This document shows, one piece after another, positions 5,884-35,556 of a stretch of 64,000 nucleotides of DNA. A program made the position numbers and the translations under genes. The DNA comes from a virus, in the IMG/VR virus record IMGVR_UViG_3300021960_000027, positions 53,938 through 117,937 of that record. One strand, 5' to 3'. The notes beneath the pieces are model-generated. The model had not been told where the DNA came from and did not search any database. It worked only from the letters and a program-made list of their open reading frames with translations. Positions within the stretch are counted from its first letter, which is position 1; each line of letters starts with the position of its first letter.

Positions 5884-5979
5884 TTGAATGAAGGCGGTCA
5901 TTTAATCAGGCAAAGAACGGTTTGCCCAGAGACACAAATCCCCCCCATCGTGTCTCTGGGCAGACCAACCAAGGGGGCG
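5881..5979 (+). promoter_or_regulatory. two stem-loops in the dnaE leader, possible pseudoknot with the SD
   Basis: Stem 5881-5891/5898-5908; 17-bp stem 5919-5935/5950-5966 with one G-U; C-run loop complementary to GGGGG at 5973-5977. Confidence 0.55.
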
Positions 5980-5981
5980 TT

Positions 5982-8900: not shown

Positions 8901-9623
8901 TACGAATCAATGGATGATTTTTTGGAGCGAAAGGGTCGTGCCTGCCACATGGGGCATGTTGAGTTGCTTGCCCAACTGGGTGCGTTTGACAAAATCAGCG
9001 GAATGCATCGCGCACAATTAGAGCAGTGGCTTAGTGATATTCGCTCTGGTAAATCGAAGGATTGTGCGTGGAAAGATGAATCAGTTACTGGTGCGCCAAA
9101 CGATTTGCCATGTACGTTTGACTGGGCAACTGAGGTTCGTATCGGTAAATCTGGTAAGCCATTGAAGACAAAGCCAGTGCCAAAGCGGTGCGGTAAAACT
9201 TGCCGAAATTACACTGAGCGTTCTGATTCAGAAATGCCAGAAAATGTTCCAGTTCATTCTGATGCTTTGATTCGTAATCGTGAGATGGACATGCTTGGCG
9301 TGTATTTGTCTAGCACTCCGTTTGATGATGTTGATAATGAAGTTAGATCATCCGTTGTTACAGCCCACCAGTTGGAGTCTCTTCCAACTGGAACCTACAT
9401 CACTCTCGGAATTGTTACCGCTGTCCGCAAGAGGAACGATAAGGCAAACCGGCAAATGGCTTTTGTTGATATTTTGACTGAGCAGGGAACGTTGTCTACT
9501 GTCACCTTTTCGGGTGAGTGGGCGAGGTATCATGGGGACATTGTTGTTAGCAAAATGATGCTGGCAAGAGTTAAGACGAACAAGCGTGGAACACAAATTA
9601 TTGATGTTGCACCAATCATTTGA
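5982..9623 (+). CDS. dnaE: DNA polymerase III alpha subunit
   Basis: PHP domain FVHLHAHSEFSPLDG and TDHG, GRGSAAGSLV, catalytic PDIDSD, KHAAGVVI, KFDLL, YAFNRSH, C-terminal OB fold. Start GTG 5982 chosen from the SD (track start 5922). Confidence 0.96.
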   Translation: MYFVVESFSVDRVTSGLLSGVPVPSVIEDADGGYRWLLVPDGLVITSHWENAYRLGAMGVLSISDGQLFFATTNSVMQSSGGFSFSVPSSELVAVESLPSSSDLALYESRSPIISESGFVHLHAHSEFSPLDGLATVQEMVDEAVRHNQSAIAVTDHGVCAAHPELAKVARRAGIKPVFGIEANFVNHRRVKESVGDYYHLILWAQNERGLRNLWSASSEAYRDGFYGRARMDWDTLSRNNDGVMCSTACLRGPLSDMILDGDEDGVRASLSRLQALFGDRLYVELHTNQLPQQRVVNEALVQLAQEFSLPTIAVADSHYACQSDHKAHKVWIAAQTNKSLQDEGDLFAGDEHYHISSVDEIRQSLSYLPQSVVDESIFQTSVVADLCNAGLESRKSTPVFHRKGEDSGSDKDARVLRQMCLDAWSKVADKPNQEEYVERLEEELDLLVSKKFCGYILLVADYCRWCKENMILMGPGRGSAAGSLVCYLTGITEVDPIDARLLFERFLTPGRTSLPDIDSDFPASKRDVITQYIVDRWGEDRVVRVGTHIRLANRGVMRDLARVLRDSLSIDYRDVDAVSKIIEDAESGTAGLGLSWDELWGQVGDELSPYQLKYPEWFEYADKFVGRLKSYGKHAAGVVIDPERSIIDRLPLRGGESEQPITEFAMEDLEELGYVKFDLLTLRTLDTIQVCLDSIREDEKLSLGSPNIYEWNEEYNDPQVWDMLCEGETLGVFQIETSAGTKLTKRFKPRSIDDLCAILTLVRPGPIRSGLTETYLSRRSGSEPVLSMHPLLDNVLDKTYQTMIYQEDIMAVCRTLGGYTTEEADEVRSILGKKKVDKVESEGRRFISRCVENGVESDIAIRLWDQMQEFARYAFNRSHSWSYALLAYWTAWLKCHYPVHFSAAVLSTVKKERIPQFVEMTRRMGYQVLPPDINESKDGFTISADRMSIRYGLDSVKNVGSSAMQAVLVGQPYESMDDFLERKGRACHMGHVELLAQLGAFDKISGMHRAQLEQWLSDIRSGKSKDCAWKDESVTGAPNDLPCTFDWATEVRIGKSGKPLKTKPVPKRCGKTCRNYTERSDSEMPENVPVHSDALIRNREMDMLGVYLSSTPFDDVDNEVRSSVVTAHQLESLPTGTYITLGIVTAVRKRNDKANRQMAFVDILTEQGTLSTVTFSGEWARYHGDIVVSKMMLARVKTNKRGTQIIDVAPII

Positions 9624-20923: not shown

Positions 20924-21541
20924 ATGCCTCTAGTCAATGATGGAAAGAACTCGGCGTGCGACGGCATTGCCGCGGTCACCGCTTACATTGGTTTGCACTC
21001 GTCGCTGAGTGATACTGGAGCCAGCGAGGTTTCAGGCGGTTCACCGGCCTACGCTCGCCAAGCGGTCACTTGGGCAACCTCTTCCGGTGGTCAAAAGGCT
21101 AACTCATCTAGCCTTACCTTTAATGTTCCCGGCTCAACTACTGTTGTTGCATTCGGAATGTGGTCTGCTTCAACGGCAGGAACCTTCTACGGATGGATGC
21201 CGTTGAACCCCGGCGCACGGGGATTTGGTACGGCAGACTCTTCAACAGATACAATTACCTCGTTCGGTCATGGTCTGACAGCAGGAACCGCACTGTACGT
21301 TGATGACGTTTTTGCAGAGTCGCTTCCTACTGGCTTGAGTCGCAACACCACCTACTATGTCATTTCGTCCGGTTTGACATCCGATGCATTCAAAATCAGT
21401 ACGTCTTCAGGCGGTAGCGCAGTAACGATTACTGCTTCTGGAGAGGTTTTCTTCCAGACGCTCACTCCTGAGACGTTTGGCGCACAGGGTACTTTGACTG
21501 TTAATGCTTCGGGGCTTGTTATCGACGCAACCGGCATCTGA
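20924..21541 (+). CDS. virion structural protein
   Basis: YIGLH...EVSGGSPAYARQAVTW...GTFYG pattern of small tail-associated proteins; S/T/G-rich. Confidence 0.7.
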   Translation: MPLVNDGKNSACDGIAAVTAYIGLHSSLSDTGASEVSGGSPAYARQAVTWATSSGGQKANSSSLTFNVPGSTTVVAFGMWSASTAGTFYGWMPLNPGARGFGTADSSTDTITSFGHGLTAGTALYVDDVFAESLPTGLSRNTTYYVISSGLTSDAFKISTSSGGSAVTITASGEVFFQTLTPETFGAQGTLTVNASGLVIDATGI

Positions 21542-21553
21542 TCGGAGTGCCGG

Positions 21554-24500
21554 ATGACGGCTATTTACTCAAATCTCCGTGCAGGCACGATCACCGATAA
21601 CCCACTCGGTTCAACTGATACAACAATTAACTCTGCTGAATTTGCAGACCTTCCAGTTGTTGCTTCCCCCGATTATCTATGGCTAACCCTTGATCCTGAG
21701 TCGGCAGTTTCTACTCCAGAAATTGTTAAGGTCACAGCCCACTCTTCTGGGGCAACCTCTGTAACAGTTGTTCGTGGCGAGCAAACATCTCTGGGTGGTA
21801 ACGCATCTCGCTCGCATAGTCAAGATACTCGCTGGGTAGCATCGTGGACTGCCGAAGACGGCGAGTTGATGCCACACCGTGTTCTTACAGCCAAGGGCGA
21901 CATTCTCGCGGCAACGGGGGCGAACACGATTGATCGCTTGGGAGTTGGAACCGATGGCTATTTTCTAAAAGCCGATTCAGGAGAATCGACTGGACTCGTC
22001 TGGGGTCAGGTCGATTTCTCTACTGCCAACCTTGATGACCTCGGTGATGTCACGATCACCAGCGCACAGGCAGGTCAGTTTGTTCAGTGGAATGGCACTG
22101 CATGGGTTAATGCGGTCATGCCGTCTGGGGAACCGATTGGTCACCAAGACAAAACTGAAAGCACTATTTCTTTCTCAAATTCCACGCGTGTCTTTACGAT
22201 TGCGCCAGTTTCTTCATCCCATGTTGTTTGGTGCAAGGGCGTTAAGCACACCAAAACCTCTTCTGAAACTGTAACCATTCCCGATACAACGGGTTTGTAC
22301 TACGTCTACTACAACGAGTCCGGCACGCTGGGCTACAAAACAACCTATTTTGTCTGGGACACTGACACCCCAACTGCCTACATTTACTGGAACGCAACAA
22401 CTGGTGAGGCAGAGTTTTTTGCAGACGAACGTCATGGGATAACTCTTGATTGGCAGACTCACGAATATCTTCACCGCACACGGGGTGCAGTTATTGCGAG
22501 TGGGTTTGGGGCATCAAATTATGTGACAGATGGCAACGGCGGTTCTGACGGACACGCTCAGTTAGATATTGCCAACGGTACGTTTTTTGATGAAGACCTT
22601 CAGGTAGACATCACCCATTCCGCAACTCCCACAGCAAACACTTGGGAGCAGGTTCTTCAGGGCGCGGCAGAAATTCCCGTCATGTATCAGGTGGGAACAG
22701 AATGGCAACTTGATACTGCTACTGAATTCCCAATTAAGGCTGGCACTGCGCTCCCTCGCTACAACTCTGTTTCAGGCTCAACGTGGTCGCTCACTGATTT
22801 AGGTAATTCTAAGTTTGGTGTTTCGTGGATTGTTGCAACCAACAATCTTAATGAACCTGTTATCGCCATCATGGGGCAGGGCGAATACAACAACATTGGT
22901 GAGGCAGAAGCAACGACTTGGGAAGAGTTAGACCTAACTGGTTTTCCTGTCTTTGAATTTCGTGTTTTGTACAAAATCGCTTTTCAGGTTGCATCGGGAT
23001 ACACCAACACAATCAAAGCCGCGATTCGTGGGGTCTACGATTTACGGCGAACAACAGTTGCTGGAGATTCAATCCCCACTATTCCAGTCGCTGACCACGG
23101 TTCCTTAACTGGTCTTGCGGATGACGATCACACTCAGTATCTCAATGAATCTCGCCATGATGCGTTAGACCACAGCACTGCGCTTGGTTCGGCGGTCGTC
23201 AGTGACCTAAGTGATGTTTCATCTACCTCACCCACATCCGGTCAGATTCTTAAGTGGAGTGGCTCGGACTGGAGTCCGTCTGACATAACACTTGGCACGG
23301 AAACAAGTGGTGATTACGTCGAATCTTTGACGGCAGGAACGGGCGTTTCAGTCGGCACCGCAACTGGAGAAGGTTCTACCCCAACCATTGCGATTGGTCA
23401 GTCGGTAGGTACTACTGACGATGTCACATTTAACACCGTCACTGGAACAAACGGGATCATTACGCTTACCACTTCAGGTGCGCCAACATCTTCGCTTTCT
23501 GATGGTGCCATCGCCATTGATACATCAAACAACATTTTGTACATCAGGTCTGGTGGAGCATGGATTGAGTCATCTGGCGGTGGAGCAAGTGTTTCTGTTT
23601 CAGATACCGCTCCATCTTCTCCAGATGTAGGTGACCTGTGGTTTGAGTCGGATACTGGAGACGTATTCGTTTACTACGACTCAGCGTGGATTGACATTGG
23701 CGGTACGTCTGTTGCGAACATTGCCACCTCCGATACCGCCCCCTCTTCTCCAGCCAATGGAGACATCTGGTTTGAGACTGATACCGCTAAGACATTCGTA
23801 TGGTATGACGATGGTTCTAGTCAGCAATGGGTAGAGATTGGCGCGGCAAGTTCGTCTGCTACTGGTTCTTCTGGTGCGATTCAGTTTGCTAACGGTAACA
23901 GTGCGTTCTCCAGCGACGGTGCGAACCTGTTCTGGGACGACACGAACAACCGACTCGGTGTAGGCACTAACAGCCCTGCTGTTGCGTTGGATGTTGTAGG
24001 TACTACTGATACTGATTATTTGACTGTTGGGGGCGAGAACGTCACCCCGTATACGGGTAAGCGCAACCTTCTTATCAATGGTGCGATGCAGGTTTACCAG
24101 CGCGCATCTTCTGGTGATGTCCTTGCCTCTGAGGGTTACAGGTGTGCTGACCGTTGGAAGTCTTACCGAACTGTAAATGCGGCTGGCACCCTTTCTGTAA
24201 ACACCACTGATGCCCCCGAAGGGTTCAACAACTCTTTGAACTACGCTTGCACCTCAGCAGAAGCAACCCCCACTAACGAAACTTTTGTGTCACAAGTTCT
24301 TGAGGGTCAAGATGTTCAGCATGTTGGCTACGGGAAATCATGGTGCAAGCAGGTAACCGTTTCGTTCTGGGTCAAATCAAATGTGACAGGGACATTCAAT
24401 GTCTGGTTCTTCCGCTGGGACGGAACTCGCCACATTGGTCGTTCCTACACGATCAACTCTGCTGACACTTGGGAATACAAGACCGTGCTTGTTCCAGCAG

Positions 24501-25072
24501 ACACATCGAACGCTGTAGCCAACGATAATACTCAGGGCTGGGAGGTACGCTTCTATCTCGCGGCACAATCAACTTGGACGGGTGGCACCGAGGCTTCAGC
24601 GTGGTCTGCTGTTTCCGACAATAACCGCGCCCCCGGTAACGCCAACATTAACTCCAGCACATCTAACTATTGGCGTGTCACAGGCGTACAGGTTGAGGTT
24701 GGTGATAAGGCGACACCGTTTGAACACCGTTCCTTTGGCGAAGAACTTGCCTTGTGTCAAAGGTACTACTTCAAACCACCACAGCATTATTACAGCACGC
24801 TGGCTTACGGAACATGGATTGATTTCAGCGCGTTCCTCCGAGCATCAATGCCGATACCTGTCACAATGCGTGCCAACCCCAGCGTCACCTACTCGTCATA
24901 CTTTGTCTACGGTGCTGGTGGATCACGGACAGGTAGTGGAACAATCTATGTTTATGGACAAGATGCAGGGATGCTAGTCCTCGGATTTGGTCATTCTGGT
25001 TCAAGTCCGGGTGGCGGGTATGTCGGCACAATCACAGCACCTAGCGGATTTGAGGTGAACGCAGAATTATGA
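21554..25072 (+). CDS. long tail fibre protein
   Basis: 1172 aa S/T/G-rich; TAKGD, LDDLGDV, tandem SDTAPSSP..GD.WFE.DT repeats, NNRLGVGT, RNLLINGAMQVYQR...ELALCQRYY module. Confidence 0.85.
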   Translation: MTAIYSNLRAGTITDNPLGSTDTTINSAEFADLPVVASPDYLWLTLDPESAVSTPEIVKVTAHSSGATSVTVVRGEQTSLGGNASRSHSQDTRWVASWTAEDGELMPHRVLTAKGDILAATGANTIDRLGVGTDGYFLKADSGESTGLVWGQVDFSTANLDDLGDVTITSAQAGQFVQWNGTAWVNAVMPSGEPIGHQDKTESTISFSNSTRVFTIAPVSSSHVVWCKGVKHTKTSSETVTIPDTTGLYYVYYNESGTLGYKTTYFVWDTDTPTAYIYWNATTGEAEFFADERHGITLDWQTHEYLHRTRGAVIASGFGASNYVTDGNGGSDGHAQLDIANGTFFDEDLQVDITHSATPTANTWEQVLQGAAEIPVMYQVGTEWQLDTATEFPIKAGTALPRYNSVSGSTWSLTDLGNSKFGVSWIVATNNLNEPVIAIMGQGEYNNIGEAEATTWEELDLTGFPVFEFRVLYKIAFQVASGYTNTIKAAIRGVYDLRRTTVAGDSIPTIPVADHGSLTGLADDDHTQYLNESRHDALDHSTALGSAVVSDLSDVSSTSPTSGQILKWSGSDWSPSDITLGTETSGDYVESLTAGTGVSVGTATGEGSTPTIAIGQSVGTTDDVTFNTVTGTNGIITLTTSGAPTSSLSDGAIAIDTSNNILYIRSGGAWIESSGGGASVSVSDTAPSSPDVGDLWFESDTGDVFVYYDSAWIDIGGTSVANIATSDTAPSSPANGDIWFETDTAKTFVWYDDGSSQQWVEIGAASSSATGSSGAIQFANGNSAFSSDGANLFWDDTNNRLGVGTNSPAVALDVVGTTDTDYLTVGGENVTPYTGKRNLLINGAMQVYQRASSGDVLASEGYRCADRWKSYRTVNAAGTLSVNTTDAPEGFNNSLNYACTSAEATPTNETFVSQVLEGQDVQHVGYGKSWCKQVTVSFWVKSNVTGTFNVWFFRWDGTRHIGRSYTINSADTWEYKTVLVPADTSNAVANDNTQGWEVRFYLAAQSTWTGGTEASAWSAVSDNNRAPGNANINSSTSNYWRVTGVQVEVGDKATPFEHRSFGEELALCQRYYFKPPQHYYSTLAYGTWIDFSAFLRASMPIPVTMRANPSVTYSSYFVYGAGGSRTGSGTIYVYGQDAGMLVLGFGHSGSSPGGGYVGTITAPSGFEVNAEL

Positions 25073-25308
25073 CGACTTATTACACTCAGACAATCACTCA
25101 AACAACTGGAGATATCACTGTTGTCTTTGCTGAACTAGATAACGGCGACACTCTTTGCTTTCCAAACGAATCAGGTAACCCTGATTACGAGGAATACCTT
25201 GAGTGGGTCGCTTTAGGTAACACAGCAACGGCGTACACAGTTCCTTCCGTTGACGAGTATTTCCCCCCATCAGATTCTGAAATCATGTTCACAATGGAGG
25301 TCATCTAA
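25069..25308 (+). CDS. small fibre-associated protein
   Basis: GNPDYEEYLEWVALGN motif typical of small genes after fibres. Confidence 0.65.
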   Translation: MTTYYTQTITQTTGDITVVFAELDNGDTLCFPNESGNPDYEEYLEWVALGNTATAYTVPSVDEYFPPSDSEIMFTMEVI

Positions 25309-25667
25309 TGGCAATGACATACAAGAGGCTTGCCGGTCCCCTGACCGCCACAACCTCAACAACATCTATCTACACCGTGCCTCAAAACACTACGACAGTG
25401 GTTAAAGAGTTTATGTTGACGAATTACTCTGCTTCTGCCGCGACTATCACCGTGTATGTTAAAGAAGCCAATGTAACTTTAGGGGACGCTCACATCATCA
25501 TTTCTGACTTGTCACTTTCGGCAGACGAAACTTTTTCGATGTCGGCCTCGCTTGTTCTACACAATGACGGTGGCGTAGCCAGCGCAACGACCTCTGACCA
25601 AATTCATGTGGTTGCAAGTGTCGGTAGTGCAATCAACATTGTGATGAACGGAATTGAGGATGCCTAA
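25308..25667 (+). CDS. putative virion structural protein
   Basis: IYTVP...TVVK...TN beta-rich pattern; TAATG coupling. Confidence 0.65.
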   Translation: MAMTYKRLAGPLTATTSTTSIYTVPQNTTTVVKEFMLTNYSASAATITVYVKEANVTLGDAHIIISDLSLSADETFSMSASLVLHNDGGVASATTSDQIHVVASVGSAINIVMNGIEDA

Positions 25668-26443
25668 TGGGAAAGTTCCATCGACGGAACAACCAAGGCC
25701 GCGGCAAGCAGTTGTTGTTTCAGACAACAGTATTTCAAGAAGAAATCGTTGAGACTTTAGAGACAGCAGATTCTCCTAACCCAATTTACGGGTCGGGTGT
25801 GGACGGAAGCATTACCTTAAATGGTTCTTCTTCGGGAACAGATGCGATCACAGGGAGCGGGACTTCCTACACTCTTGCTAGAGACTTGTTTTGTAAAAAT
25901 CTTAGTATCGGTTCTTCCGTACATTTGAATACAAATGGATATCGCGTATTTGTTCAGGGAACTCTTACCCTGTCTTCCAGTTCCCGAATTGGCTTTACTA
26001 CCGGACACTCAACCGCTGGTAGTATTCAACAAGGTGGTGCTATCAACACTTCCGTGACACATAGTTTGGGTGGGGATAGCGCAACTGAAACGGCTACTGA
26101 TCCAACAACGGCAGAAGGCGGGACTCTTTATTACAAGCAGGCACTTCAGGCGTATCGTGGATATTCAATTACTGCCGGTTCAACTTCTCCATCTTTTTTG
26201 CGTGGTGGGGCAGGGGGAACTGCCGGTGCGGGGGGTGGAGTAGTGATTATTTGCGCTCGCTATATTGCCCAACGTTCTGGTTCATCTAAAATAGCCGCGC
26301 CCGGAACGCAGGGAACTGGTGGGGGTGGCGGTGGAGTAGTTATTATTATTTCTTCTGGTTCTTCTCTTTCTTCTGGGGTAAATACAGAAGTTGTCGGCGG
26401 TACAGGTTGCGGTAATGGAACCGCTATTTACTTACAGGCATAA
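25667..26443 (+). CDS. glycine-rich fibre/adhesin-like protein
   Basis: YGSGVDG...NL...LNTNGYRVFVQGTL and GAGGGVVII repeats; paralogue of the next gene. Confidence 0.7.
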   Translation: MGKFHRRNNQGRGKQLLFQTTVFQEEIVETLETADSPNPIYGSGVDGSITLNGSSSGTDAITGSGTSYTLARDLFCKNLSIGSSVHLNTNGYRVFVQGTLTLSSSSRIGFTTGHSTAGSIQQGGAINTSVTHSLGGDSATETATDPTTAEGGTLYYKQALQAYRGYSITAGSTSPSFLRGGAGGTAGAGGGVVIICARYIAQRSGSSKIAAPGTQGTGGGGGGVVIIISSGSSLSSGVNTEVVGGTGCGNGTAIYLQA

Positions 26444-26445
26444 TC

Positions 26446-28323
26446 GTGGCACGCACTAGACGGTTTAACAGTGTTCTTCGTAAATTGGAGAAGGCCGCGT
26501 CTGAGGGCACGACAGTTAATGATTGGTTGTTTGGTTCTGGAGAGCATGGTGATGTGACCGTCGCTAACGGTCAAACCGTCACACTGGATTCTGACAAATA
26601 CTATGAGAATCTGACTGTAAATTCTGGGGGAACGCTGTTTACTAACGGCTTCCGTGTATTTGTCAACGGCACACTGACAAACAATGGTACTATCGGCTTT
26701 CCCTCTGGCTCTGCTGATGTTACAACAAACCCATCAAGCATTTCTCGCCGTAGCCATACTGCGGTCAGTTACGGAATTGGTGAGGCTTCTAATACCGTAA
26801 CTGAAGGAGAGTTATATGATTTAGATGACGTTATTGGTGGCTATTACATAACAGCGTCTGGTTCTATTCGCGGTCTTCAAGGTGGCGACCCCGGTACAGA
26901 CGGGTCTGATGGAAGCATTACGGCTAACGCAACAGCAGGTAATGCCGGTAGTGCTGGTACTTATCCGGGTGCCGCGGTGGGTGCCCCCGGCGGTGCAGGC
27001 AATCCCGGTACGTCAGGTAACGCGGCAACGGCTGGTACTGCTGGAGGTAGGGGAGCCGGTGGGGGAGTTGTACTCATCATTGCCCGTACGGTTACTGGTT
27101 CTGGAGAAATTGTTAGTTTTGGTACGGCGGGAACAAGCGGTAATGTTGCGACGCAAGGTACTGACGGCTCGGATGGGACTTCTGCCCCCAATATCGCGGC
27201 GTATGCAAACCCCGGAAATACCCACACTTCCGGTCACAATGCTGGTTCTGGATCACACCCAGCAAACAGTCTTGTACCCAACTTGAGTCACAATGCTACG
27301 GCGTACAGTGCTGGACATAACGCGGGTCACGGGCATCACCCCGCTAACGGTCCGCATGGAAACACTGGTCATAACGCGACGGCGCATGCGAACGGACATA
27401 ACGCTGGACATGGTCATCATCCCGCTGGCGGTCCGCATGGTAACCACGGACATCACGCCAGCACAACTCGGTCAAACCACCACCACCATGTTCAAAACCA
27501 TCATCATGTTCGATCAAATCACCATCACCACACGCAAACCAACCATCACCACCACACCGACTCTCACCATCACACGCGATCAAACCACCACCACCACACC
27601 CGAACAAACCATCACCACACCGTAGGACCAGTTCGTTCTAACAGCCATCATCACTTTAGGTCGAACTACCACTCAGGAAACCACAGGTCTAACCACCATT
27701 TCCACGGGCGATCAAACCACCATCATCACCATCACACTCAGTCGAATCACCACCACCACACCCAAACAAACCATCACCACCATGTTCAAAACCATCATCA
27801 TGTTCGATCAAATCACCATCACCACACTCAGACAAATCACCACCACCACACCGATTCTCACCACCACACGCGAACGAATCATCACCACCACACGGCTGGC
27901 GACGCAGGTCACCCCGCAAACGGAGCAATGGCTCCAAATCACCACGCCTCGGTGAACTACGCACATAACTCTGGTACTACAGCCCACCCCGCTGGCGGTT
28001 CGCTCGCTCCTAACCACAGTGCCTCGGCTCATCCCGCTGGTCATAATGCCGGTAACGCAAACCACGCGGCAAATGGAACTCTTACCACAAATCACAATGC
28101 TTCATCGCACCCCGCAGGGCACAACGTCACTCACAACCCAAATTATTCAGGAGGTTCTGGGGGAGGGAAAGGCACTGGTGGAACTGCTACTGATGGCAAC
28201 GCTGGCAACCAAGGACAAAAGGGTGCTATTATTGTTGTGACCAGACAAATGGACTCTAATGTCCGCTCGGCTCAGTTGGGCAACCACTCCAACTATGCCA
28301 GAATTATAGATGTGGATGGATAG
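26446..28323 (+). CDS. glycine-rich fibre/adhesin-like protein with a large His-rich repeat insert
   Basis: FGSGEHGD...LFTNGFRVFVNGTL and GAGGGVVLII shared with the upstream paralogue; insert of GHNAG/HPA and RSNHHHH repeats. Confidence 0.8.
   Translation: MARTRRFNSVLRKLEKAASEGTTVNDWLFGSGEHGDVTVANGQTVTLDSDKYYENLTVNSGGTLFTNGFRVFVNGTLTNNGTIGFPSGSADVTTNPSSISRRSHTAVSYGIGEASNTVTEGELYDLDDVIGGYYITASGSIRGLQGGDPGTDGSDGSITANATAGNAGSAGTYPGAAVGAPGGAGNPGTSGNAATAGTAGGRGAGGGVVLIIARTVTGSGEIVSFGTAGTSGNVATQGTDGSDGTSAPNIAAYANPGNTHTSGHNAGSGSHPANSLVPNLSHNATAYSAGHNAGHGHHPANGPHGNTGHNATAHANGHNAGHGHHPAGGPHGNHGHHASTTRSNHHHHVQNHHHVRSNHHHHTQTNHHHHTDSHHHTRSNHHHHTRTNHHHTVGPVRSNSHHHFRSNYHSGNHRSNHHFHGRSNHHHHHHTQSNHHHHTQTNHHHHVQNHHHVRSNHHHHTQTNHHHHTDSHHHTRTNHHHHTAGDAGHPANGAMAPNHHASVNYAHNSGTTAHPAGGSLAPNHSASAHPAGHNAGNANHAANGTLTTNHNASSHPAGHNVTHNPNYSGGSGGGKGTGGTATDGNAGNQGQKGAIIVVTRQMDSNVRSAQLGNHSNYARIIDVDG
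27469..27895 (+). repeat. coding tandem repeats (R/Q)(S/T)NHHHH, including a 53-bp exact duplication
   Basis: 27481-27533 is identical to 27775-27827 (294 nt apart); other units differ at synonymous positions. Confidence 0.9.
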
Positions 28324-28330
28324 GTGAATT

Positions 28331-28573
28331 ATGTTTGAAAGCATGTCAACTGAAGACAAGATCGCTTTGTGTGATGAGCAAGTATCTCAAGTAGATCGTA
28401 ACATCTACTCTTATATGCTCACCCTCGGATTAGACCCAGATGCTGGAGACGCTACAGCAGTGACCGTTGATTCTTCCGAATCAGATTATGTACAGAGTCT
28501 TCAGCAAAGCATTATTGATGCTGTTGCTCGGCGTGCATTTATTGTCGGAATTAAAACTGCTCTTAGTGCGTGA
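28331..28573 (+). CDS. hypothetical protein
   Basis: 80 aa, AGGTG SD; possible fibre chaperone by position. Confidence 0.7.
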   Translation: MFESMSTEDKIALCDEQVSQVDRNIYSYMLTLGLDPDAGDATAVTVDSSESDYVQSLQQSIIDAVARRAFIVGIKTALSA

Positions 28574-28755
28574 TGTTGTCAGACAGCAGTCCAACACATA
28601 AGTTGTATGCTTGCTGTTTGATGGCTGGAGTTAATCCATCTTCTCTGACTAAAGAGTGGATAATGACAGCACCTGAGGGAACCGTACAGTACGACTTAGA
28701 AATATTTCTTCAAATTGCATTGAATGAGTTTCAGTCTGATAATCTAAATACCTAA
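28570..28755 (+). CDS. hypothetical protein
   Basis: 61 aa, coupled to both neighbours. Confidence 0.55.
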   Translation: MMLSDSSPTHKLYACCLMAGVNPSSLTKEWIMTAPEGTVQYDLEIFLQIALNEFQSDNLNT

Positions 28756-29459
28756 TGGCCTGCCCAACTTTTCATTTTGCTGGTCACCGCAGTAACTACA
28801 TTTTGATCGGTGACGATGTGGTTGATGCAGACGTATGCGATGACATTATCTCAAGATGTTTAGCCAACTATGATGATTTCTTTTACCCCGGACCGACTTT
28901 AGGTGGGGTAGACGTTGCTACAAAATCTAGTATGGATTTTGATTTTGGGGTAGATTCTGTTGTTAGCAAAGGTTTTGATCCAGAGCCGTGGGCGACGTAC
29001 GAATCAATTATGAGTAATGCCCTCACTACAATTATTAGTGAGTATCAGTCTAGTTTTTTTGATCTTTGGCGAGTGCCTAATTTAGTGGACACCGGATTCC
29101 GTCTTCAGCATTACGCAAAAAATTACGGTTACTACAGGGAACACATTGACGGTTGTGTTTGGGGACCAGTTTCTTCTCGTACAAGAATCTTTGGTGTAGT
29201 AATTTATTTAAATGACATTGATTCTGGTGGGGAAACACATTTTCCCATTCAAGAAGAGAAGGTGCAGGCAAGGGCGGGTCGGATTGCATTGTTTCCTGCC
29301 GCGTGGACACATCCTCACGCCGGTCTTCCTGCACATAGTAGTGACAAGTGGATGATTAGTTCATTTATCACATGCACTCCAGACGATGACTATTTAGAGT
29401 ATGATATTGAATCTGGAGAAATGAAGTCCCCCAATAATCAGTCAGGAGATGATGCGTGA
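28755..29459 (+). CDS. 2OG-Fe(II) oxygenase (prolyl-4-hydroxylase-like)
   Basis: EHIDG (HxD), IYLND...GGETHF, FPA..THPH, KW motif. Confidence 0.9.
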   Translation: MACPTFHFAGHRSNYILIGDDVVDADVCDDIISRCLANYDDFFYPGPTLGGVDVATKSSMDFDFGVDSVVSKGFDPEPWATYESIMSNALTTIISEYQSSFFDLWRVPNLVDTGFRLQHYAKNYGYYREHIDGCVWGPVSSRTRIFGVVIYLNDIDSGGETHFPIQEEKVQARAGRIALFPAAWTHPHAGLPAHSSDKWMISSFITCTPDDDYLEYDIESGEMKSPNNQSGDDA

Positions 29460-30070
29460 AAAAGGGAGAGGCAGTAGGGGTAGAGGTAGCACCTTGCATT
29501 GTCGTTTATGAAGATGTGTTTGATGCCACCATTTTTTTGCGTACTCTTGTTCAAGAATGTGAAAACGAAGAAGGTTTTCTTAATTGGACAAGAGACACTG
29601 TAGGTGATGGAGAAGTAACTGATAAGCGAACTTCTATGAGTTGTAGCATCGATAACTTGCGTGATGCAGAAGAATATTCAGAGACGCTTAACGAAAATAC
29701 AAAATTGTTGATTGATGAGTGGATGCAAATTTTCCCCAAAATTGACGACGTAGTTTGGTCATACCGCAGTTCCTACGACCTTCCTTTGCGCGGAGATCAG
29801 GGATACCGAGTTTTGCGTTACCGAGGTGGCGAAGAATATCAAGCCCATCACGACCACGGTCCGGGTAACAACAGGGTTCTCAGCATCGTTGCTTTTATTA
29901 ACGATGGATACACGGGGGGCGAACTGGTATTTCCTACCTTTGATGTAACCGTGACTCCTAAGGCGGGGAGTGTTGTTGCCTTTCCGTCTAACTTCCCCTA
30001 CAAGCACATTGCTAAACCTGTAGGCGAGGATGGTTCGGCTAAGTATTCGCTTGTTTCGTGGTTTGAGTGA
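29456..30070 (+). CDS. 2OG-Fe(II) oxygenase (prolyl-4-hydroxylase-like)
   Basis: AHHD (HxD), RVLS..FINDGYTGGELVF, FPSNFPYKH, KYSLVSWF. Confidence 0.9.
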   Translation: MKKGEAVGVEVAPCIVVYEDVFDATIFLRTLVQECENEEGFLNWTRDTVGDGEVTDKRTSMSCSIDNLRDAEEYSETLNENTKLLIDEWMQIFPKIDDVVWSYRSSYDLPLRGDQGYRVLRYRGGEEYQAHHDHGPGNNRVLSIVAFINDGYTGGELVFPTFDVTVTPKAGSVVAFPSNFPYKHIAKPVGEDGSAKYSLVSWFE

Positions 30071-31578
30071 TGCATAAGCACATTGTAATTGTTGGCTCAG
30101 GAACCGCCGGACTAACCACTGCCATTAGCCTCAAGTCGTGGTTTCAAATGTACGACATTACCGTTGTGTCGTCTAAGAACATTGGCATCATTGGGGTTGG
30201 AGAAGGTTCTACTGAGCATTGGCGCGGTTTTCAAAATGACATGGATATTCCCATTGAAGGGTTGCTGACTAAATCAAAGGCAACCCATAAATACGGGATT
30301 GCGTTTGAAAATTGGACAACTCACACCCCTCATTACTACCACTCTGTTTCTCACGGTCCAATTACTATCGGTAACTTTGCGGGTTCTTACGCCTACTGCA
30401 TTGAGAACGATTTGCAACTGACTAAGACTCTTTCTTGGCGGGGCATGAAAGACGGCAAGATTCCTTATAGCGAAGACAAGGAAGGCAACGAAAATACTCA
30501 TCTTAATACCAACCAATATCACTTTGATACACACGCTCTTAACGATTTTTTGAAAGTAATTGCTGTTGAACGCGGTGTGTACTTTGTTGAGGATGAAGTT
30601 GACTTTGTTGTCAAGGACGAAGAAGGTTGGGTTGACTCTCTTTATTTGAAGAGGGCTAGGGGCAGAATTAAAGCCGATCTATTTATTGACGCTTCAGGCT
30701 TTAATCGTGTGCTTTTAAAAGAGATGGACGACCAAACGTTTGTCGATTACGGAAAATATTTACCTTGCGATAGTGCAGTAGTTTTTCCAACTCCCTCGCG
30801 CGAAGATGGAAAAATCCTTCCTTTTACTCGTTCTCGCGCCTTAAGTTCTGGATGGCTGTGGGAGATTCCGACTCAAGAACGTAGGGGAAATGGATACGTC
30901 TATTCTTCTAAGTACATTTCTGACGATGAAGCACAGAAAGAGGCGTTTGACGCGGCGGGCTATGAGTCTGAAGAAAGCCGTATCCTTCGGTTTGAATCTG
31001 GTTACATGAAAAAGACTTGGCAAAAGAACGTTGTGGCAGTTGGCTTGTCTTCTGGTTTTATTGAACCTTTGGAGGCAACATCTATTTCTATGTCGCTACA
31101 GCAGGCTCGCTTAATTGCTTCCTATTTACCGACGTTTAATAAAGAGTCGCGATTCATGGTGGATGAGTACCATCGACTTATGGATCAAATTATGGAAAAC
31201 ACTTTGTCCATGATTTCTCTCCACTACATTTCTGACCGTACGGACTCTGAGATGTGGAGAGATCAGCAGAACGCCCCCAAGCCAGAACTGTTAGAACGGC
31301 TTTTAGGGTTGTGGGCAGAACGTTGCCCAGAGATTCACGACATGCCCCATTCTGGATTTGAGTTATTTAATCCTGTACACTTGTGGCATGTAGCGCAAGG
31401 TCAAGGTTTGATTGATAAAGACTTAGCCACTATGCAACTGGATGCCTACGGTTCTCGCGGTCCATCTCGTCAGCATATTAATCAGGTAACTGCCGAGTAT
31501 ATGAGGGGAGATATCGTTGACCACCGAGAAGCACTCCAGCGACTTGCCGAACGATTTGAAGATAGTCAGTCCAAGTAG
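30067..31578 (+). CDS. flavin-dependent tryptophan halogenase family protein
   Basis: IVGSGTAG (FAD), IGVGEGS, ATHKYGI (catalytic Lys position), FIDASGF, WLWEIP (WxWxIP), FIEPLEATS. Confidence 0.92.
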   Translation: MMHKHIVIVGSGTAGLTTAISLKSWFQMYDITVVSSKNIGIIGVGEGSTEHWRGFQNDMDIPIEGLLTKSKATHKYGIAFENWTTHTPHYYHSVSHGPITIGNFAGSYAYCIENDLQLTKTLSWRGMKDGKIPYSEDKEGNENTHLNTNQYHFDTHALNDFLKVIAVERGVYFVEDEVDFVVKDEEGWVDSLYLKRARGRIKADLFIDASGFNRVLLKEMDDQTFVDYGKYLPCDSAVVFPTPSREDGKILPFTRSRALSSGWLWEIPTQERRGNGYVYSSKYISDDEAQKEAFDAAGYESEESRILRFESGYMKKTWQKNVVAVGLSSGFIEPLEATSISMSLQQARLIASYLPTFNKESRFMVDEYHRLMDQIMENTLSMISLHYISDRTDSEMWRDQQNAPKPELLERLLGLWAERCPEIHDMPHSGFELFNPVHLWHVAQGQGLIDKDLATMQLDAYGSRGPSRQHINQVTAEYMRGDIVDHREALQRLAERFEDSQSK

Positions 31579-32368
31579 TATTCACGAAATTCAGCCGAAA
31601 CCGGGGCAGGTGTTTATGGCACCTCAGACTCCCATTTTGTTTCACGAAAAGTCGTTACCCATTAACAACACCCGCTCATGGCCTGACTGGTGGAAAGAAG
31701 TCGATTCGACTGAGGGAAGTGTCCGACGCTGTGCTGGAACGGCTGATTACATCAGCCTTGGTTTGACGATTCCGTTGTGGGCTAACCTCAAACTGCGCCC
31801 TTCCCCTAACAAGCGTCAGTGGGAGTCACAATTCGATATTGCTGGTGACCACCCATTCAGTGTTGAGGGTTTTAGTTTTGAGCAAACTGGGGCGATTCCT
31901 GTCACTGAGGTGCGCGGCATTAAGCGTGCAAACTATGTCAAGATCATTAATCCGTGGGTTATTAAGACTGCTCCCGGTTGGTCTTGCATGTTTCTTCCTG
32001 ACATGTATCAGCCAGACCCTAATTGGACGATTCTTCCGGCGGTAGTCAACACGGATTATTACCATCATGCCCATATTGTTATTAATGTTTTAGCCGAGGA
32101 CGAGTTCACTATTCCTGTGGGCTATCCGATGCAACACATCATCCCGTTTGAACGATCCACTACAGGCATTGAGATGCAATATGGTGATCGAAATGCGTAT
32201 GAGATCATGGATCAGGCAGGGTTCGGCACTCCATTTATCCCGCGCAACATGAAATCTAAGTACAAGAAGACTCAGCGTGAAATGGATGCTGGTGTTGAAA
32301 AGTGTCCTGTTGTTGGTCATACAGAAAAAGTAAAAAAACAGCGCAGGTGGTTCAGCAAGAATAAATAG
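31517..32368 (+). CDS. conserved hypothetical protein (DUF6065-like beta fold)
   Basis: PDWWK...RC...IPLW, KIINPWVIKTAPGWS, VVNTD and QHIIPF motifs recalled from phage oxygenase clusters; start uncertain. Confidence 0.55.
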   Translation: MTTEKHSSDLPNDLKIVSPSSIHEIQPKPGQVFMAPQTPILFHEKSLPINNTRSWPDWWKEVDSTEGSVRRCAGTADYISLGLTIPLWANLKLRPSPNKRQWESQFDIAGDHPFSVEGFSFEQTGAIPVTEVRGIKRANYVKIINPWVIKTAPGWSCMFLPDMYQPDPNWTILPAVVNTDYYHHAHIVINVLAEDEFTIPVGYPMQHIIPFERSTTGIEMQYGDRNAYEIMDQAGFGTPFIPRNMKSKYKKTQREMDAGVEKCPVVGHTEKVKKQRRWFSKNK

Positions 32369-33782: not shown

Positions 33783-34057
33783 TGAAACACATTCACAATG
33801 TTGAAACTGGCGAAGAGTACGACATTGAATTTACCGAAGAAGAGATTGCGTCGCTAGATGCTTTGCAGAATGAATCAGCACGAATAACTGCCAAAGAGAA
33901 AAGAGACATGCTTCTGAAAGACTCAGACTGGCGTGTTCTTCCCCACTCTCCATCAGATGTTGAAGCGTGGGCTGTTTACCGTCAACAGTTGCGTGATCTC
34001 CCATCTGACCCTGCTTGGCCTTATGTTGAGTTCCCTGATCCACCGGAGGCTAACTAA
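33779..34057 (+). CDS. tail fibre assembly chaperone
   Basis: RDMLLKDSDW...WAVYRQQLRDLP...FPDPP motif. Confidence 0.85.
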   Translation: MMKHIHNVETGEEYDIEFTEEEIASLDALQNESARITAKEKRDMLLKDSDWRVLPHSPSDVEAWAVYRQQLRDLPSDPAWPYVEFPDPPEAN

Positions 34058-35556
34058 TGGCTATCAACTTTCCTGATTCCCCCTCCGTAAACGACACCCA
34101 TACAGTTGGTGACAAGACTTGGACTTGGGACGGTACTGCTTGGAACGTAGTTGTTGGGGGCATCCCCACAACCATCAATGAACTTACAATCACAAACGAC
34201 CTGACAGTTGATACAAACACCCTTTATGTCGATTCTACAAACAACCGGCTTGGTATCGGTACAACCAGCCCTGCGACGACATTAGACGTTGAAGGTGCAA
34301 TCGAAGGTCACGCGATCAGCGCATCTACAGATGCGGTTCTTAACCTGAAGGCATCATACGCGCAACTCCAGTTAACAGACACCGACGACAGCACCTACAT
34401 CCATTACTCGTATAGTGGTGGCGTACTTCGCCATCGCTACAACAGTTACAACGCAAATGAGTTCCTCACGCTTGACGCAGTGAATGGGAGGGTCGGTATC
34501 GGTACAACCAACCCTGCAACGACTTTGGAAGTAGCCGGTGCCGCGGCTCATATCCGTATTACTGACTCGGATACTGCTGGCACTACTGGTATTGATTTTT
34601 ACGACAGCAACGGCACGGCAGATGTTGAGTTGGAGGTTGGTAACTCTACTCAGTATTTTGCGATCAAAACCGCTGGTTCTGAGGCGATGCGTATTGATTC
34701 GTCGGGCAATGTCGGTATCGGTACAACCAGTCCAAATCAGAAACTTGATGTTGATGGCAACCTTGCTGTTCGTGGCAAAATGGTCACAGGATTATCCACA
34801 TTCACCCAAGAACCGTGGGCTAACTCAACTATTGCTCTAGGTAACTACGGGTTCGTTGGGACAGAAGGTTCCTATGGGACATCGCTGGTGTGGAACTGGG
34901 AACGTGGTACAGATTCTGGTTACTACAGTTTGGGTGTCAACTCGTACACTTCCGCGGCTGGTATCCACATGCGTAACGATGGTATTCGTTTCCAGTTTGA
35001 TTCGTCATGGGGTGCTACATCGGAACCCACGACCAGAATGCAGGTGCTTGCGACTGGAGTCAACATACTCACACAGGTACAGAGTCAGCGAATACTTCCG
35101 TTTTCAGATAACACATACAACTTGGGCGACGGGGTTTTGAGGTGGGCAAATATATACGGTGCCACCGGGTCAGTAAATAGTTCAGACATTAGGGATAAGA
35201 CAGACATTTTGGATTTGGATTACGGTCTTGAGTTTATTCAAAGTCTTAGACCTGTCAAATACCGATTTGATGACAGAGATGCTGAAGCACCCGGAGTTAG
35301 AACACACATGGGTTTCATTGCTCAAGAAGTTGCCGAGGCAATGGGTCAAGAGGCAACAAACAGAGGTGTTTGGACAAGTACGCTAAATTCTGTTTTGGAA
35401 ACGACAGATGAAGAAGGAAACACTATAACCATCACAAGAGATCGTCAGGGTTTGCGTTACTCCGAGTTCATCGCCCCCATAGTGAAGTCTGTACAAGAGT
35501 TGTCGTCTATGGTTGCCACTTTGACTGCCCGTATTGAAGCGTTAGAGACTAACTAA
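34057..35556 (+). CDS. tail fibre with C-terminal peptidase S74 intramolecular chaperone
   Basis: MAINFPDSPS anchor, GIGTT repeats, SSDIRDK...LRPVKY...GFIAQEV...VKSVQEL. Confidence 0.9.
   Translation: MAINFPDSPSVNDTHTVGDKTWTWDGTAWNVVVGGIPTTINELTITNDLTVDTNTLYVDSTNNRLGIGTTSPATTLDVEGAIEGHAISASTDAVLNLKASYAQLQLTDTDDSTYIHYSYSGGVLRHRYNSYNANEFLTLDAVNGRVGIGTTNPATTLEVAGAAAHIRITDSDTAGTTGIDFYDSNGTADVELEVGNSTQYFAIKTAGSEAMRIDSSGNVGIGTTSPNQKLDVDGNLAVRGKMVTGLSTFTQEPWANSTIALGNYGFVGTEGSYGTSLVWNWERGTDSGYYSLGVNSYTSAAGIHMRNDGIRFQFDSSWGATSEPTTRMQVLATGVNILTQVQSQRILPFSDNTYNLGDGVLRWANIYGATGSVNSSDIRDKTDILDLDYGLEFIQSLRPVKYRFDDRDAEAPGVRTHMGFIAQEVAEAMGQEATNRGVWTSTLNSVLETTDEEGNTITITRDRQGLRYSEFIAPIVKSVQELSSMVATLTARIEALETN

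What the first reader, a model, noticed from the sequence alone, without database searches (positions are those of the whole stretch)
26446..28323. Fibre-like protein with a symmetric poly-histidine insert (RSNHHHH repeats)
Seen: this ORF is a paralogue of the preceding Gly-rich gene but has a roughly 300-aa insert. The insert runs Gly-rich / GHNAG-HPA repeats / HHHH repeats / central RSNSHHHF-RSNYHSGNH-RSNHHFHG / HHHH repeats / HPA-GHNAG repeats / Gly-rich. Synonymous variation among most units argues for protein-level selection. Known: the T4 gp37 needle is an out-and-back trimeric hairpin held by HxH-bound iron. Inference: an extreme metal-loaded needle or metal-scavenging appendage, perhaps using a host metal-uptake receptor. 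The His density far exceeds the HxH fibres I know.
Basis: partly seen in the sequence, partly recalled or inferred. Interest (0 to 1): 0.82.

Follow-up and report, generated by a model that had tools for sequence, protein, structure and literature searches.

The report
Histidine-packed loop on a phage fibre-module protein
An uncultured aquatic phage encodes, among its tail-fibre genes, a beta-helix protein that carries a 311-residue loop made one-third of histidine, laid out as two matching arms around a unique centre, most likely a metal-binding out-and-back projection.

Summary
ORF 26446-28323 encodes 625 aa with 100 His. Of these, 97 lie in a 311-aa insert (31% His; 45 His in the densest 100 aa, against 12 in T4 gp37). 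The insert runs arm, His block, centre, His block, arm. The repeats are direct copies in nested order, not mirror sequence. Selection acts on the peptide: pN/pS against an 83%-identical orthologue is 0.07-0.15.

It is not a one-off. The protein belongs to a large unnamed family (3995 cluster representatives at E<=0.001). No match was found in 50,697 GenBank phage records. The family has a confidently predicted beta-helix core, split by an insert of 41-1007 aa. That insert has at least 10% His in 85% of 170 members. The window's protein is the extreme of a continuum.

The gene sits in a conserved cassette: a 119-aa gene, a short paralogue, the His-insert protein, two prolyl-4-hydroxylase-like oxygenases, a flavin halogenase and a 283-aa gene.

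My best reading is a metal-cross-linked out-and-back projection in the tail-fibre module, possibly modified by these enzymes. Nothing shows homology to gp37, a trimer, metal binding or presence in the virion. Earlier first-reader notes of this scan cover the same stretch.

The parts
26446..28323 (+). Whole gene of the His-insert protein (625 aa, P0001)
   Evidence: Open frame. 173 homologues at E<=0.001. An 83%-identical syntenic orthologue in L003.
26446..27210 (+). N-terminal part of the beta-helix core (aa 1-255), including a collagen-like Gly-rich stretch (aa 146-255)
   Evidence: pLDDT mostly above 90. Conserved motifs such as LFTNGFRVFVNGTLTNNGTIG and GGGVVLIIA are invariant or nearly so across the family. 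Homologous to the upstream paralogue.
27211..27462 (+). Outgoing arm (aa 256-339, 84 aa): GHNAG / HPA units, 23% His, 20% Gly
   Evidence: (family D7, 81-nt spacing). pN/pS 0.07 against L003 for the two arms together. L003 has one extra 27-aa unit here.
27463..27621 (+). First poly-His block (aa 340-392, 47% His): xxNHHH(H) units every 7-8 residues
27622..27708 (+). Unique centre (aa 393-421), the candidate tip: TVGPVRSNSHHHFRSNYHSGNHRSNHHFH, holding the insert's only Phe residues and one of its three Tyr
   Evidence: The widest gap between His runs is centred at 0.50 of the insert length.
27709..27897 (+). Second poly-His block (aa 422-484, 51% His). It contains a direct copy of 41 codons of the first block
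   Evidence: D2, 91% identical DNA. (11 synonymous, 1 non-synonymous difference).
27898..28140 (+). Returning arm (aa 485-565, 81 aa): HPAG / NHxAS units, 16% His
   Evidence: L003 has one extra 26-aa unit here.
28141..28323 (+). C-terminal part of the core (aa 566-625): Gly-rich stretch, then strands AIIVVTR and ARIIDV, then the stop codon
   Evidence: pLDDT 81-98. Conserved family-wide.
25667..26443 (+). Short insert-free paralogue (258 aa, P0002), always directly upstream
   Evidence: Present in 80 of 80 related viral loci.
25308..25667 (+). 119-aa gene of unknown function (phrog_1276), first gene of the conserved cassette
   Evidence: Present in 71 of 80 loci.
28755..30070 (+). Two 2OG-Fe(II) oxygenase genes (234 aa and 204 aa)
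   Evidence: PF13640. The nearest solved relatives are prolyl 4-hydroxylases. Found in 48 and 69 of 80 loci.
30067..31578 (+). Flavin-dependent halogenase gene (503 aa)
   Evidence: PF04820, E 6.6e-104. VirX1 6qgm, E 1.9e-39. Found in 62 of 80 loci.
31517..32368 (+). 283-aa gene of unknown function (phrog_7084), last conserved member of the cassette in the window
   Evidence: Found in 61 of 80 loci.
21554..25072 (+). Tail-fibre gene (1172 aa) upstream; it sets the structural context
   Evidence: phrog_4492, E 2.1e-48. More fibre genes lie at 32409 and 34057.

Best explanation
The gene encodes a structural protein of the phage's tail-fibre module. Its base is a small right-handed beta-helix of the bactofilin type, formed jointly by residues ~20-255 and 565-625.

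Between the last rungs of that helix the chain leaves the domain for 311 residues and returns to the same spot. The excursion is built as two matching arms: GHNAG/HPAG units, then eight xxNHHH(H) units on each side. The arms surround a 29-residue unique centre with aromatic residues. I infer that the arms run antiparallel and pair with each other, forming a thin out-and-back stalk with the centre as its tip.

I further infer that the dense imidazole groups are cross-linked by transition-metal ions (Fe, Zn, Ni or Cu). On this view the stalk folds only with metal, which would explain why structure predictors see no fold. His is neutral at seawater pH and charged below about pH 6, so such a stalk would also respond to pH.

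Its role would be host-surface contact or fibre stiffening. The adjacent prolyl-hydroxylase-like oxygenases and the halogenase may modify it.

Shown here: the gene, the family, the core fold prediction, the nested layout, purifying selection and the conserved cassette. Inferred: arm pairing, metal binding, presence in the virion and modification.
For: Real and constrained:
- The frame is open.
- Against the L003 orthologue, pN/pS is 0.07 in the arms and 0.15 in the His blocks, against 0.20 in the core. 45 of 91 conserved His codons differ synonymously.
- The sister allele was assembled twice.

One domain from two halves:
- AF2 gives pLDDT above 90 for the core in two family members.
- VIA-align gives bactofilin 6ria Z 9.5, 79 of 90 residues, rmsd 2.4.
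- Inserts range from 41 to 1007 aa between the same core halves in 170 members.

Nested two-arm layout:
- Mirror-composition score 0.49, reached by 0 of 1000 block shuffles.
- 8/8 His units, with 88/88-aa offsets.
- L003 differs by +27 aa in one arm and +26 aa in the other.
- Distant members show the same plan with other repeats: L082 has 8/8 GGNxNP units around a His/aromatic centre, and L030 has 3/3 NHH units. I picked these examples by eye.

Metal-binding chemistry:
- 31% His and no Lys or Glu in the insert.
- 32 HxH motifs against 7 in the iron-binding T4 gp37 tip.
- Some relatives add Cys to the His.
- Inserts are 16-fold enriched in His over cores.

Fibre context:
- Tail-fibre genes lie on both sides.
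- The same neighbourhood is seen in 80 of 80 loci found through the protein.
- It is also seen in 69 of 80 loci found through the halogenase.
Against: - Both AF2 models leave the insert below pLDDT 50. That fits plain disorder just as well.
- The systematic tests of arm pairing were not decisive. Among 24 independent pairs of relatives, 11 had same-sign length changes in both halves, 8 were one-sided, 1 was opposite and 4 were small. The pairs were pre-selected for a length difference of 10 or more, which favours same-sign results.
- One pair (the L021 protein and P0129) differs by a 13-aa unit in one arm only; P0010, identical to the L021 protein across the insert, shows the same difference in an alignment.
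- Across 32 representative inserts, mirror similarity exceeded translational similarity in 24, but was not above zero overall (19 of 32, p 0.4).
- There is no homology to any known fibre tip.
- There is no proteomic or expression evidence that the protein is in the virion.
- No cultured phage carries the family, so no experiment bears on it.
- Cassette linkage could be inherited gene order within one viral lineage. Two halogenase loci with full flanks (L108, L109) lack the family.
Confidence: 0.45

Rival explanations
1. The insert is a substrate scaffold. The conserved neighbours (two prolyl-4-hydroxylase-like oxygenases, a flavin halogenase with an open active site, and a 283-aa protein) hydroxylate and halogenate its Pro, Asn, His or Tyr residues. 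The result would be a chemically cross-linked or hardened His/Gly-rich fibre, comparable to the zinc- and halogen-containing His/Gly-rich jaw proteins of Nereis worms. This can hold together with metal binding.
For: - The cassette is present in every one of the 35 family loci (of 45 tabulated) whose contig runs at least 5 kb past the gene.
- It was found in 48-69 of 80 loci overall, although the halogenases have diverged to 39-56% identity.
- The linkage survives rearrangement: in L045, L046, L064, L074 and L082 the enzymes lie upstream instead.
- The reciprocal search gives 69 of 80.
- The nearest solved relatives of both oxygenases are prolyl 4-hydroxylases, including a collagen-peptide hydroxylase.
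- Inserts are 2.8-fold enriched in Pro.
- VirX1 is described as having a large accessible active site, and the review's table lists no natural product for it (passages of PMC8407142).
- Nereis jaw proteins are His- and Gly-rich, bind Zn and are described as halogenated and cross-linked (passages of PMC13120676).
Against: - No modification was or can be observed here.
- The cassette is also present next to His-poor family members (6-8% His), so it does not track His content.
- A cultured cyanophage (S-H38) has the halogenase with oxygenase-like neighbours but no family member within 7 kb.
- Only the best 80 of at least 551 halogenase loci were examined.
- The window's insert has only 3 Tyr and no Trp, the usual halogenase targets.
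Confidence: 0.25
2. The insert is an intrinsically disordered, low-complexity His-rich tether or metal sponge with no defined hairpin. Only its composition matters, for example for chelating trace metals or sensing pH.
For: - pLDDT is below 50 across the insert in both models.
- The composition (H, G, N, A, T, S, P) is typical of disordered regions.
- Insert sequence and length vary greatly across the family.
- The His-rich jaw protein Nvjp-1 is called intrinsically disordered in the title and abstract of PMC9465683 (search listing).
Against: - Positional constraint is strong, not just compositional. pN/pS is 0.07-0.15, with synonymous sites near saturation.
- The two arms keep equal unit counts and offsets.
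- The layout beats every one of 3000 block shuffles that keep composition.
Confidence: 0.2
3. It is a true relative of the T4 gp37 needle: a homotrimer whose six strands intertwine around a line of iron ions, each bound by HxH from the three chains.
For: - HxH motifs lie on both arms, as in gp37, where 3 lie before and 4 after the tip.
- The chain must go out and back.
- The gene lies in a fibre module.
Against: - No Pfam, PDB-sequence or Foldseek similarity to gp37.
- The base is predicted as a self-contained single-chain beta-helix.
- The units are HHHH runs every 7-8 residues, not isolated HxH.
Confidence: 0.07
4. The repeat array is an assembly artefact of a short-read metagenome.
For: No single Logan contig spans 27504-27804. 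Contigs break at the exact repeat.
Against: - All pieces match at 100%, and the middle piece has flank-like depth (26.3 against 32.7; 10.4 against 6.7-9).
- The frame stays open.
- Repeat copies differ mostly at synonymous sites.
- The 83%-identical orthologue has the same plan and was assembled in two records.
Confidence: 0.03

Closest known systems
Receptor-binding tip (needle) of the T4 long tail fibre protein gp37
   Same: A phage fibre-module protein in which the chain runs out to a tip and back. It carries His motifs on both arms; in gp37 these bind seven iron ions (passages of PMC11705849 citing Bartual 2010; 7 HxH motifs counted).
   Different: No detectable homology. gp37 has 14 His in 216 tip residues, while this insert has 97 in 311. 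Here the units are runs of 3-6 His every 7-8 residues. The base is a bactofilin-like beta-helix carrying the stalk as an internal insert, not a C-terminal needle. A trimer is not shown.
Bactofilin-type and adhesin-type right-handed beta-helices
   Same: The predicted core superposes on bactofilin (Z 9.5, 79 of 90 residues, rmsd 2.4) and on beta-helical adhesins, tapirins and a tailspike.
   Different: No Pfam bactofilin match. Z values of 7-9 are in the range the tool calls common. The core also contains long Gly-rich, collagen-like loops, and a huge insert lies between rungs.
Histidine/glycine-rich metal-hardened structural proteins (Nereis jaw Nvjp-1 and Nai11527)
   Same: Gly- and His-rich proteins (Nai11527: 29% Gly, 16% His). 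They are stiffened by Zn-imidazole bonds and associated with halogenation and cross-linking (PMC13120676 passages; PMC9465683 abstract). Here a halogenase and hydroxylase-like genes sit next to the His-rich gene.
   Different: An animal extracellular matrix, not a virus. No sequence relation was tested or is expected. Metal binding and modification are not shown here.
gp38-type adhesins of T2/S16-like phages (Gly-rich motifs separated by hypervariable loops)
   Same: Conserved Gly-rich segments flank a hypervariable segment in a fibre-module protein. There are weak structural and language-model leads (VIA Z 5.2 and 5.8 to 6f45_D; Atlas score 0.76 to a GP38 cluster).
   Different: The scores are within noise and there is no Pfam GP38 match. 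There is one giant His-rich insert rather than several short loops.
HxH-bearing tail fibres of marine phages ('Ferrojan/Trojan horse' proposal)
   Same: Aquatic phage fibre proteins proposed to carry iron through His motifs (PMC11705849, abstract and passages).
   Different: Those proteins carry about six HxH motifs per chain. This family devotes whole domains to His and comes with its own enzyme cassette.

Membership tests
T4 gp37-type iron-binding needle | Detectable sequence similarity to the gp37 C-terminal tip | tested here: not met
   No Pfam family at E<=0.1. The family profile against all PDB chain sequences at E<=10 listed 13 sequences, none of them gp37.
T4 gp37-type iron-binding needle | Fold similarity to the solved needle | tested here: inconclusive
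   Foldseek against PDB gave no match at E<=0.001. The insert is modelled below pLDDT 50, so its fold could not be compared.
T4 gp37-type iron-binding needle | HxH motifs on both the outgoing and the returning arm | tested here: met
   32 overlapping HxH motifs, with 8 His runs on each side of the centre. gp37 has 3 and 4.
T4 gp37-type iron-binding needle | Out-and-back chain path | tested here: inconclusive
   The core halves form one confident domain and the layout is nested, so the chain must return. Arm pairing itself was not shown, and the family-wide tests were mixed.
T4 gp37-type iron-binding needle | Homotrimer with metal ions on the three-fold axis | not testable with these tools
   This needs a structure, native mass spectrometry or ICP-MS.
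Bactofilin / right-handed beta-helix | Beta-helix fold of the core | tested here: met
   VIA-align: 6ria Z 9.5 (79 aligned, rmsd 2.4) and 2n3d Z 9.0; Z 7.7 and 7.5 with the full-length model. This is a fold resemblance only.
Bactofilin / right-handed beta-helix | Match to the Pfam bactofilin model | tested here: not met
   No Pfam hit at E<=0.1.
Collagen triple-helix repeat (PF01391) | Pfam match / long Gly-X-Y run | tested here: not met
   No Pfam hit for P0001, and only runs of about 3 triplets are visible. PF01391 is on record for 9 of the 120 listed relatives.
gp38-type adhesin (PF05268) | Pfam match or clear fold match to S16 gp38 | tested here: inconclusive
   No Pfam hit. VIA Z 5.2 and 5.8 and Atlas score 0.76 are all weak.
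Unnamed family defined here (beta-helix core split by a variable insert) | Both core halves present, with an insert between them | tested here: met
   The N and C HMMs both hit P0001, insert 310 aa; 170 distinct members. The profile search gave 3995 representatives at E<=0.001 and 86 at E<=1e-30.
Unnamed family defined here (beta-helix core split by a variable insert) | Cassette neighbours (119-aa gene, short paralogue, two oxygenases, halogenase, 283-aa gene) | tested here: met
   All are present in the window and in most related loci.

The most novel reading that the evidence does not exclude
A large group of uncultured aquatic phages builds a so far undescribed kind of virion appendage. It would be a metal-zipped poly-histidine hairpin stalk grown out of a beta-helix base. 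It would then be tailored after translation by a dedicated, co-inherited enzyme set: two prolyl-hydroxylase-like oxygenases, a VirX1-like halogenase and an unknown 283-aa protein. This would give the long-sought natural substrate of phage halogenases and 2OG oxygenases. It would also make these phages carriers of tens of metal ions per fibre.
Probability: 0.2. Interest if true: 0.9.

Novelty: new variant of a known kind. Interest (0 to 1): 0.7.

Why it matters
1. The protein is the extreme member of a big, unnamed and uncultured phage protein family: 3995 cluster representatives, and none in 50,697 GenBank phage records. Nearly all its members devote a whole inserted segment to histidine. This suggests that metal coordination is a common design principle of aquatic phage surface structures, far beyond the handful of HxH motifs discussed so far. 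It bears on proposals that phages carry trace metals in the sea.

2. The family is tightly linked with two prolyl-hydroxylase-like oxygenases and a flavin halogenase. That offers a concrete, testable candidate substrate for enzymes that are widespread in marine phages and whose natural targets are unknown.

3. The nested two-arm design, with length changes that can occur in both arms, is a simple model of how a protein stalk can be lengthened by repeat gain.

Tried and rejected
- Trimer with iron. Complex prediction on residues 256-565 in three copies with four Fe(II) gave no verdict (score 0.00, controls not run). It says nothing either way.
- AF2 on the whole protein with 102 sequences, and on a short, well-populated subfamily member (P0050, 78 sequences). 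Both left the insert below pLDDT 50, so no fold could be read for the insert.
- Foldseek against PDB gave nothing at E<=0.001. Foldseek against BFVD gave seven hits at E<=0.001: three named collagen-like or collagen-domain proteins of giant viruses and four uncharacterised or unnamed ones. TM scores were only 0.21-0.29. I read these as Gly-rich sequence likeness, not a shared fold.
- DNA (blastn) and protein (tblastn) searches of GenBank phages with the region, P0001 and P0027 found no match. BLAST's low-complexity filter is on, but the conserved N-terminal domain should still have matched.
- Family-wide tests of arm pairing: correlated indels in 24 pairs, half-against-half local alignments (uninformative because the alignments span most of each half) and mirror against translational composition in 32 inserts. 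The results were mixed, and I count them as inconclusive.
- Does the cassette track His content? It does not. His-poor members have it too.
- A cultured cyanophage (S-H38) was checked for the family near its halogenase. None was found within 7 kb, only an unrelated 36%-Gly protein.
- Logan contigs of run X4 (85% of the words) laid nothing. The tool warns this can be false, so I draw nothing from it. I draw no habitat claim from the small-share runs X6-X8.
- Literature searches found no paper describing this family or cassette. They were 'histidine-rich / tail fiber / phage / HxH' and 'halogenase / 2OG-Fe / phage / tail fiber / histidine'. Only listings and abstracts were seen, apart from the passages cited. 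Supplementary files were not consulted.
Full report
**What is there.** The window is the last 64 kb of a 117,937-bp IMG/VR virus record with direct terminal repeats. ORF 26446..28323 on the plus strand encodes 625 residues.
- It has 100 histidines. 97 of them lie in residues 256-565, which are 31% His with no Lys or Glu.
- The densest 100-residue window holds 45 His. T4 gp37, read from NC_000866, has 24 His in 1026 residues, at most 12 per 100, and exactly seven HxH motifs in its tip.

| Segment | Residues | Note |
|---|---|---|
| Gly-rich flank | 146-255 | |
| N arm | 256-339 (84 aa) | GHNAG/HPA units, 23% His |
| First His block | 340-392 | 47% His, units every 7-8 residues |
| Centre | 393-421 | unique, holds both Phe and one of three Tyr |
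| Second His block | 422-484 | 51% His |
| C arm | 485-565 (81 aa) | HPAG units |
| Gly-rich flank | 566-593 | |

- [NS]HHH units number eight on each side. The first block begins 88 residues into the insert and the second ends 88 residues before its end.
- A mirror-composition score of 0.49 was reached by none of 1000 block shuffles at block sizes 10, 20 and 30.
- The symmetry is one of order and length, not of sequence. The repeats are direct copies, for example 27473-27599 and 27767-27893 at 91% identity.

**Is it real and selected?**
- Logan contigs of three runs tile 26000-28520 at 100% identity. They break at the exact repeat (27504-27510 and 27798-27804), and the middle piece has a depth like the flanks. 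No single contig spans the array. Two of these runs may be the source of the window.
- A syntenic orthologue in L003 (689 aa, 83% identical) has the same plan. Its insert was assembled again in another record, L086, with 3 differences in 1326 nt.
- Against L003, pN/pS is 0.07 in the arms, 0.15 in the His blocks and 0.20 in the core, with synonymous sites near saturation. 45 of 91 conserved His codons use the other codon. The two internal 41-codon copies differ by 11 synonymous changes and 1 non-synonymous change.
- The peptide, not the DNA repeat, is what is kept.

**The family.**
- P0001 has no Pfam match and one marginal PHROG match.
- A word-based search found 173 relatives, all unnamed or 'hypothetical'. 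Members of one cluster carry the name 'collagen-like protein'.
- A profile search of 1.84 billion representatives found 3995 at E<=0.001, 1606 at E<=1e-10 and 86 at E<=1e-30.
- The first ~55 conserved residues also occur inside much longer proteins.
- tblastn of P0001 and P0027 against 50,697 GenBank phage records found nothing.
- Among 170 distinct members with both core halves, the insert is 41-1007 aa long. Its median His content is 18%; 85% of members have at least 10% and 11% have at least 25%. P0001 ranks second by fraction and first among long inserts.
- Pooled, inserts are enriched 16-fold in His and 2.8-fold in Pro over cores. Some members add Cys or replace His by other repeats.
- The window's protein is therefore the extreme of a family trait, not a singular oddity.

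**Fold.**
- AF2 on the full protein (102-sequence alignment) gives pLDDT mostly above 90 for residues ~20-255 and 565-625, and below 50 for 260-556.
- A short member (P0050, 386 aa) behaves the same way.
- The core resembles small right-handed beta-helices: bactofilin 6ria Z 9.5 with 79 of 90 residues at rmsd 2.4, then adhesins, tapirins and a tailspike. Foldseek found nothing significant in PDB.
- The two halves form one domain, and some relatives have very short inserts. The insert's ends must therefore be adjacent, so the chain goes out and returns.
- The preceding gene is a paralogue over the N-terminal ~150 residues.

**Do the arms pair?**
- For pairing: the nested, equal-armed layout; the +27/+26-aa difference between the window and L003; and the same plan in distant members with unrelated repeats. 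L082 has 8/8 GGNxNP units around a His/aromatic centre, and L030 has 3/3 NHH units with flanking Cys. I chose these examples after reading the sequences.
- Against pairing, or neutral: in 24 independent pairs of relatives the length changes were two-sided in 11, one-sided in 8, opposite in 1 and small in 4, with a selection bias towards two-sided. One pair differs by a 13-aa unit in one arm only. The family-wide mirror score is not above zero.
- I take arm pairing as likely for this protein and unproven for the family.

**Context.**
- The gene lies between tail-fibre genes: 21554-25072 (phrog_4492), 32409 and 34057, the last with a Peptidase_S74 chaperone domain.
- In 80 viral loci found through the protein, the neighbours recur as follows.

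| Neighbour | Loci of 80 |
|---|---|
| Short paralogue | 80 |
| 119-aa gene | 71 |
| 204-aa oxygenase | 69 |
| Halogenase | 62 |
| 283-aa gene | 61 |
| 234-aa oxygenase | 48 |

- The shortfalls are largely contig ends. Every one of the 35 loci (of 45 tabulated) with at least 5 kb beyond the gene has all four enzyme-cassette genes.
- The halogenases have diverged to 39-56% identity. In some loci the enzymes lie upstream instead.
- In the reverse direction, 69 of the 80 best halogenase loci carry the family. Nine of the eleven without it are cut short upstream, and two (L108, L109) truly lack it. Only the best 80 of at least 551 were examined.
- Both oxygenases are PF13640, and their nearest solved relatives are prolyl 4-hydroxylases. 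The halogenase is PF04820 and matches VirX1 at E 1.9e-39.
- A review describes VirX1 as having a large accessible active site, and its table lists no natural product for it (passages).

**Reading.**
- The best-supported account is a fibre-module beta-helix protein bearing an out-and-back, His-packed stalk that needs metal ions to fold.
- The enzyme cassette may modify it. The closest analogy for such a material is the Zn-binding, halogenated His/Gly-rich jaw protein of Nereis (passages).
- It works like the gp37 needle in principle, but it is not a member of that family.
- Metal binding, oligomeric state, modification and presence in the virion all remain to be tested.

Noticed in passing
window 25308-32368, and loci L003-L082: A conserved cassette recurs across viral contigs of 118-197 kb. 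It holds a 119-aa gene, the short paralogue, the His-insert protein, sometimes an 80-aa gene, two P4H-like oxygenases, a flavin halogenase and a 283-aa gene. In some loci the enzyme block lies upstream, and in two loci it is duplicated (L036, L038).
   Followed up: partly
window 5922-9623: The phage encodes a DnaE-type (Pol III alpha) polymerase of 1233 aa. The best GenBank phage matches are only ~33% identical. Two ~193-kb contigs that carry the family encode a 31-32% identical DnaE, so the carriers are not T4-like cyanophages.
   Followed up: partly
window 20924-21541: A 205-aa protein just upstream of the big fibre gene matches Pfam PF23140 (fibre I protein gp80 of podophage GP4, E 4.1e-10) and phrog_240 'head protein'.
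   Followed up: no
window 34057-35556: A 499-aa tail-fibre protein ends in a Peptidase_S74 intramolecular chaperone domain (PF13884, E 2.5e-14).
   Followed up: no
L082 8663-10078 and L030 7743-9290: Family members with quite different inserts keep the arm-centre-arm plan. One has eight GGNxNP octads on each side of a His/aromatic centre. The other has three NHH units on each side, with Cys residues near both ends and in the centre.
   Followed up: partly
L005 8040-9668 versus protein P0009: The two proteins have identical flanks but differ by a clean 74-aa deletion near the middle of the insert, between direct repeats. This is either real tip-length variation or an assembly collapse.
   Followed up: no
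L083 (Synechococcus phage S-H38) 1554-2444: A cultured cyanophage has a 296-aa protein with 36% Gly plus Cys/His clusters. It lies between a tail-fibre gene and a halogenase flanked by oxygenase-like genes annotated 'endonuclease V'. It has no detectable relation to the family.
   Followed up: no
proteins P0206 (1764 aa), P0240 (4356 aa) and others: The first ~55 conserved residues of the family (profile positions ~20-76) occur inside many longer proteins, sometimes several times. This looks like a mobile module of wider use.
   Followed up: no
L108 and L109: Two halogenase loci with a full 10-kb upstream flank carry no family member, unlike 69 of the other 78.
   Followed up: no
window 27504-27510 and 27798-27804: Short-read contigs of public runs end exactly at the 27-nt perfect repeat inside the His blocks. 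Such arrays are probably under-assembled in metagenomes, as with the truncated relative P0003.
   Followed up: partly
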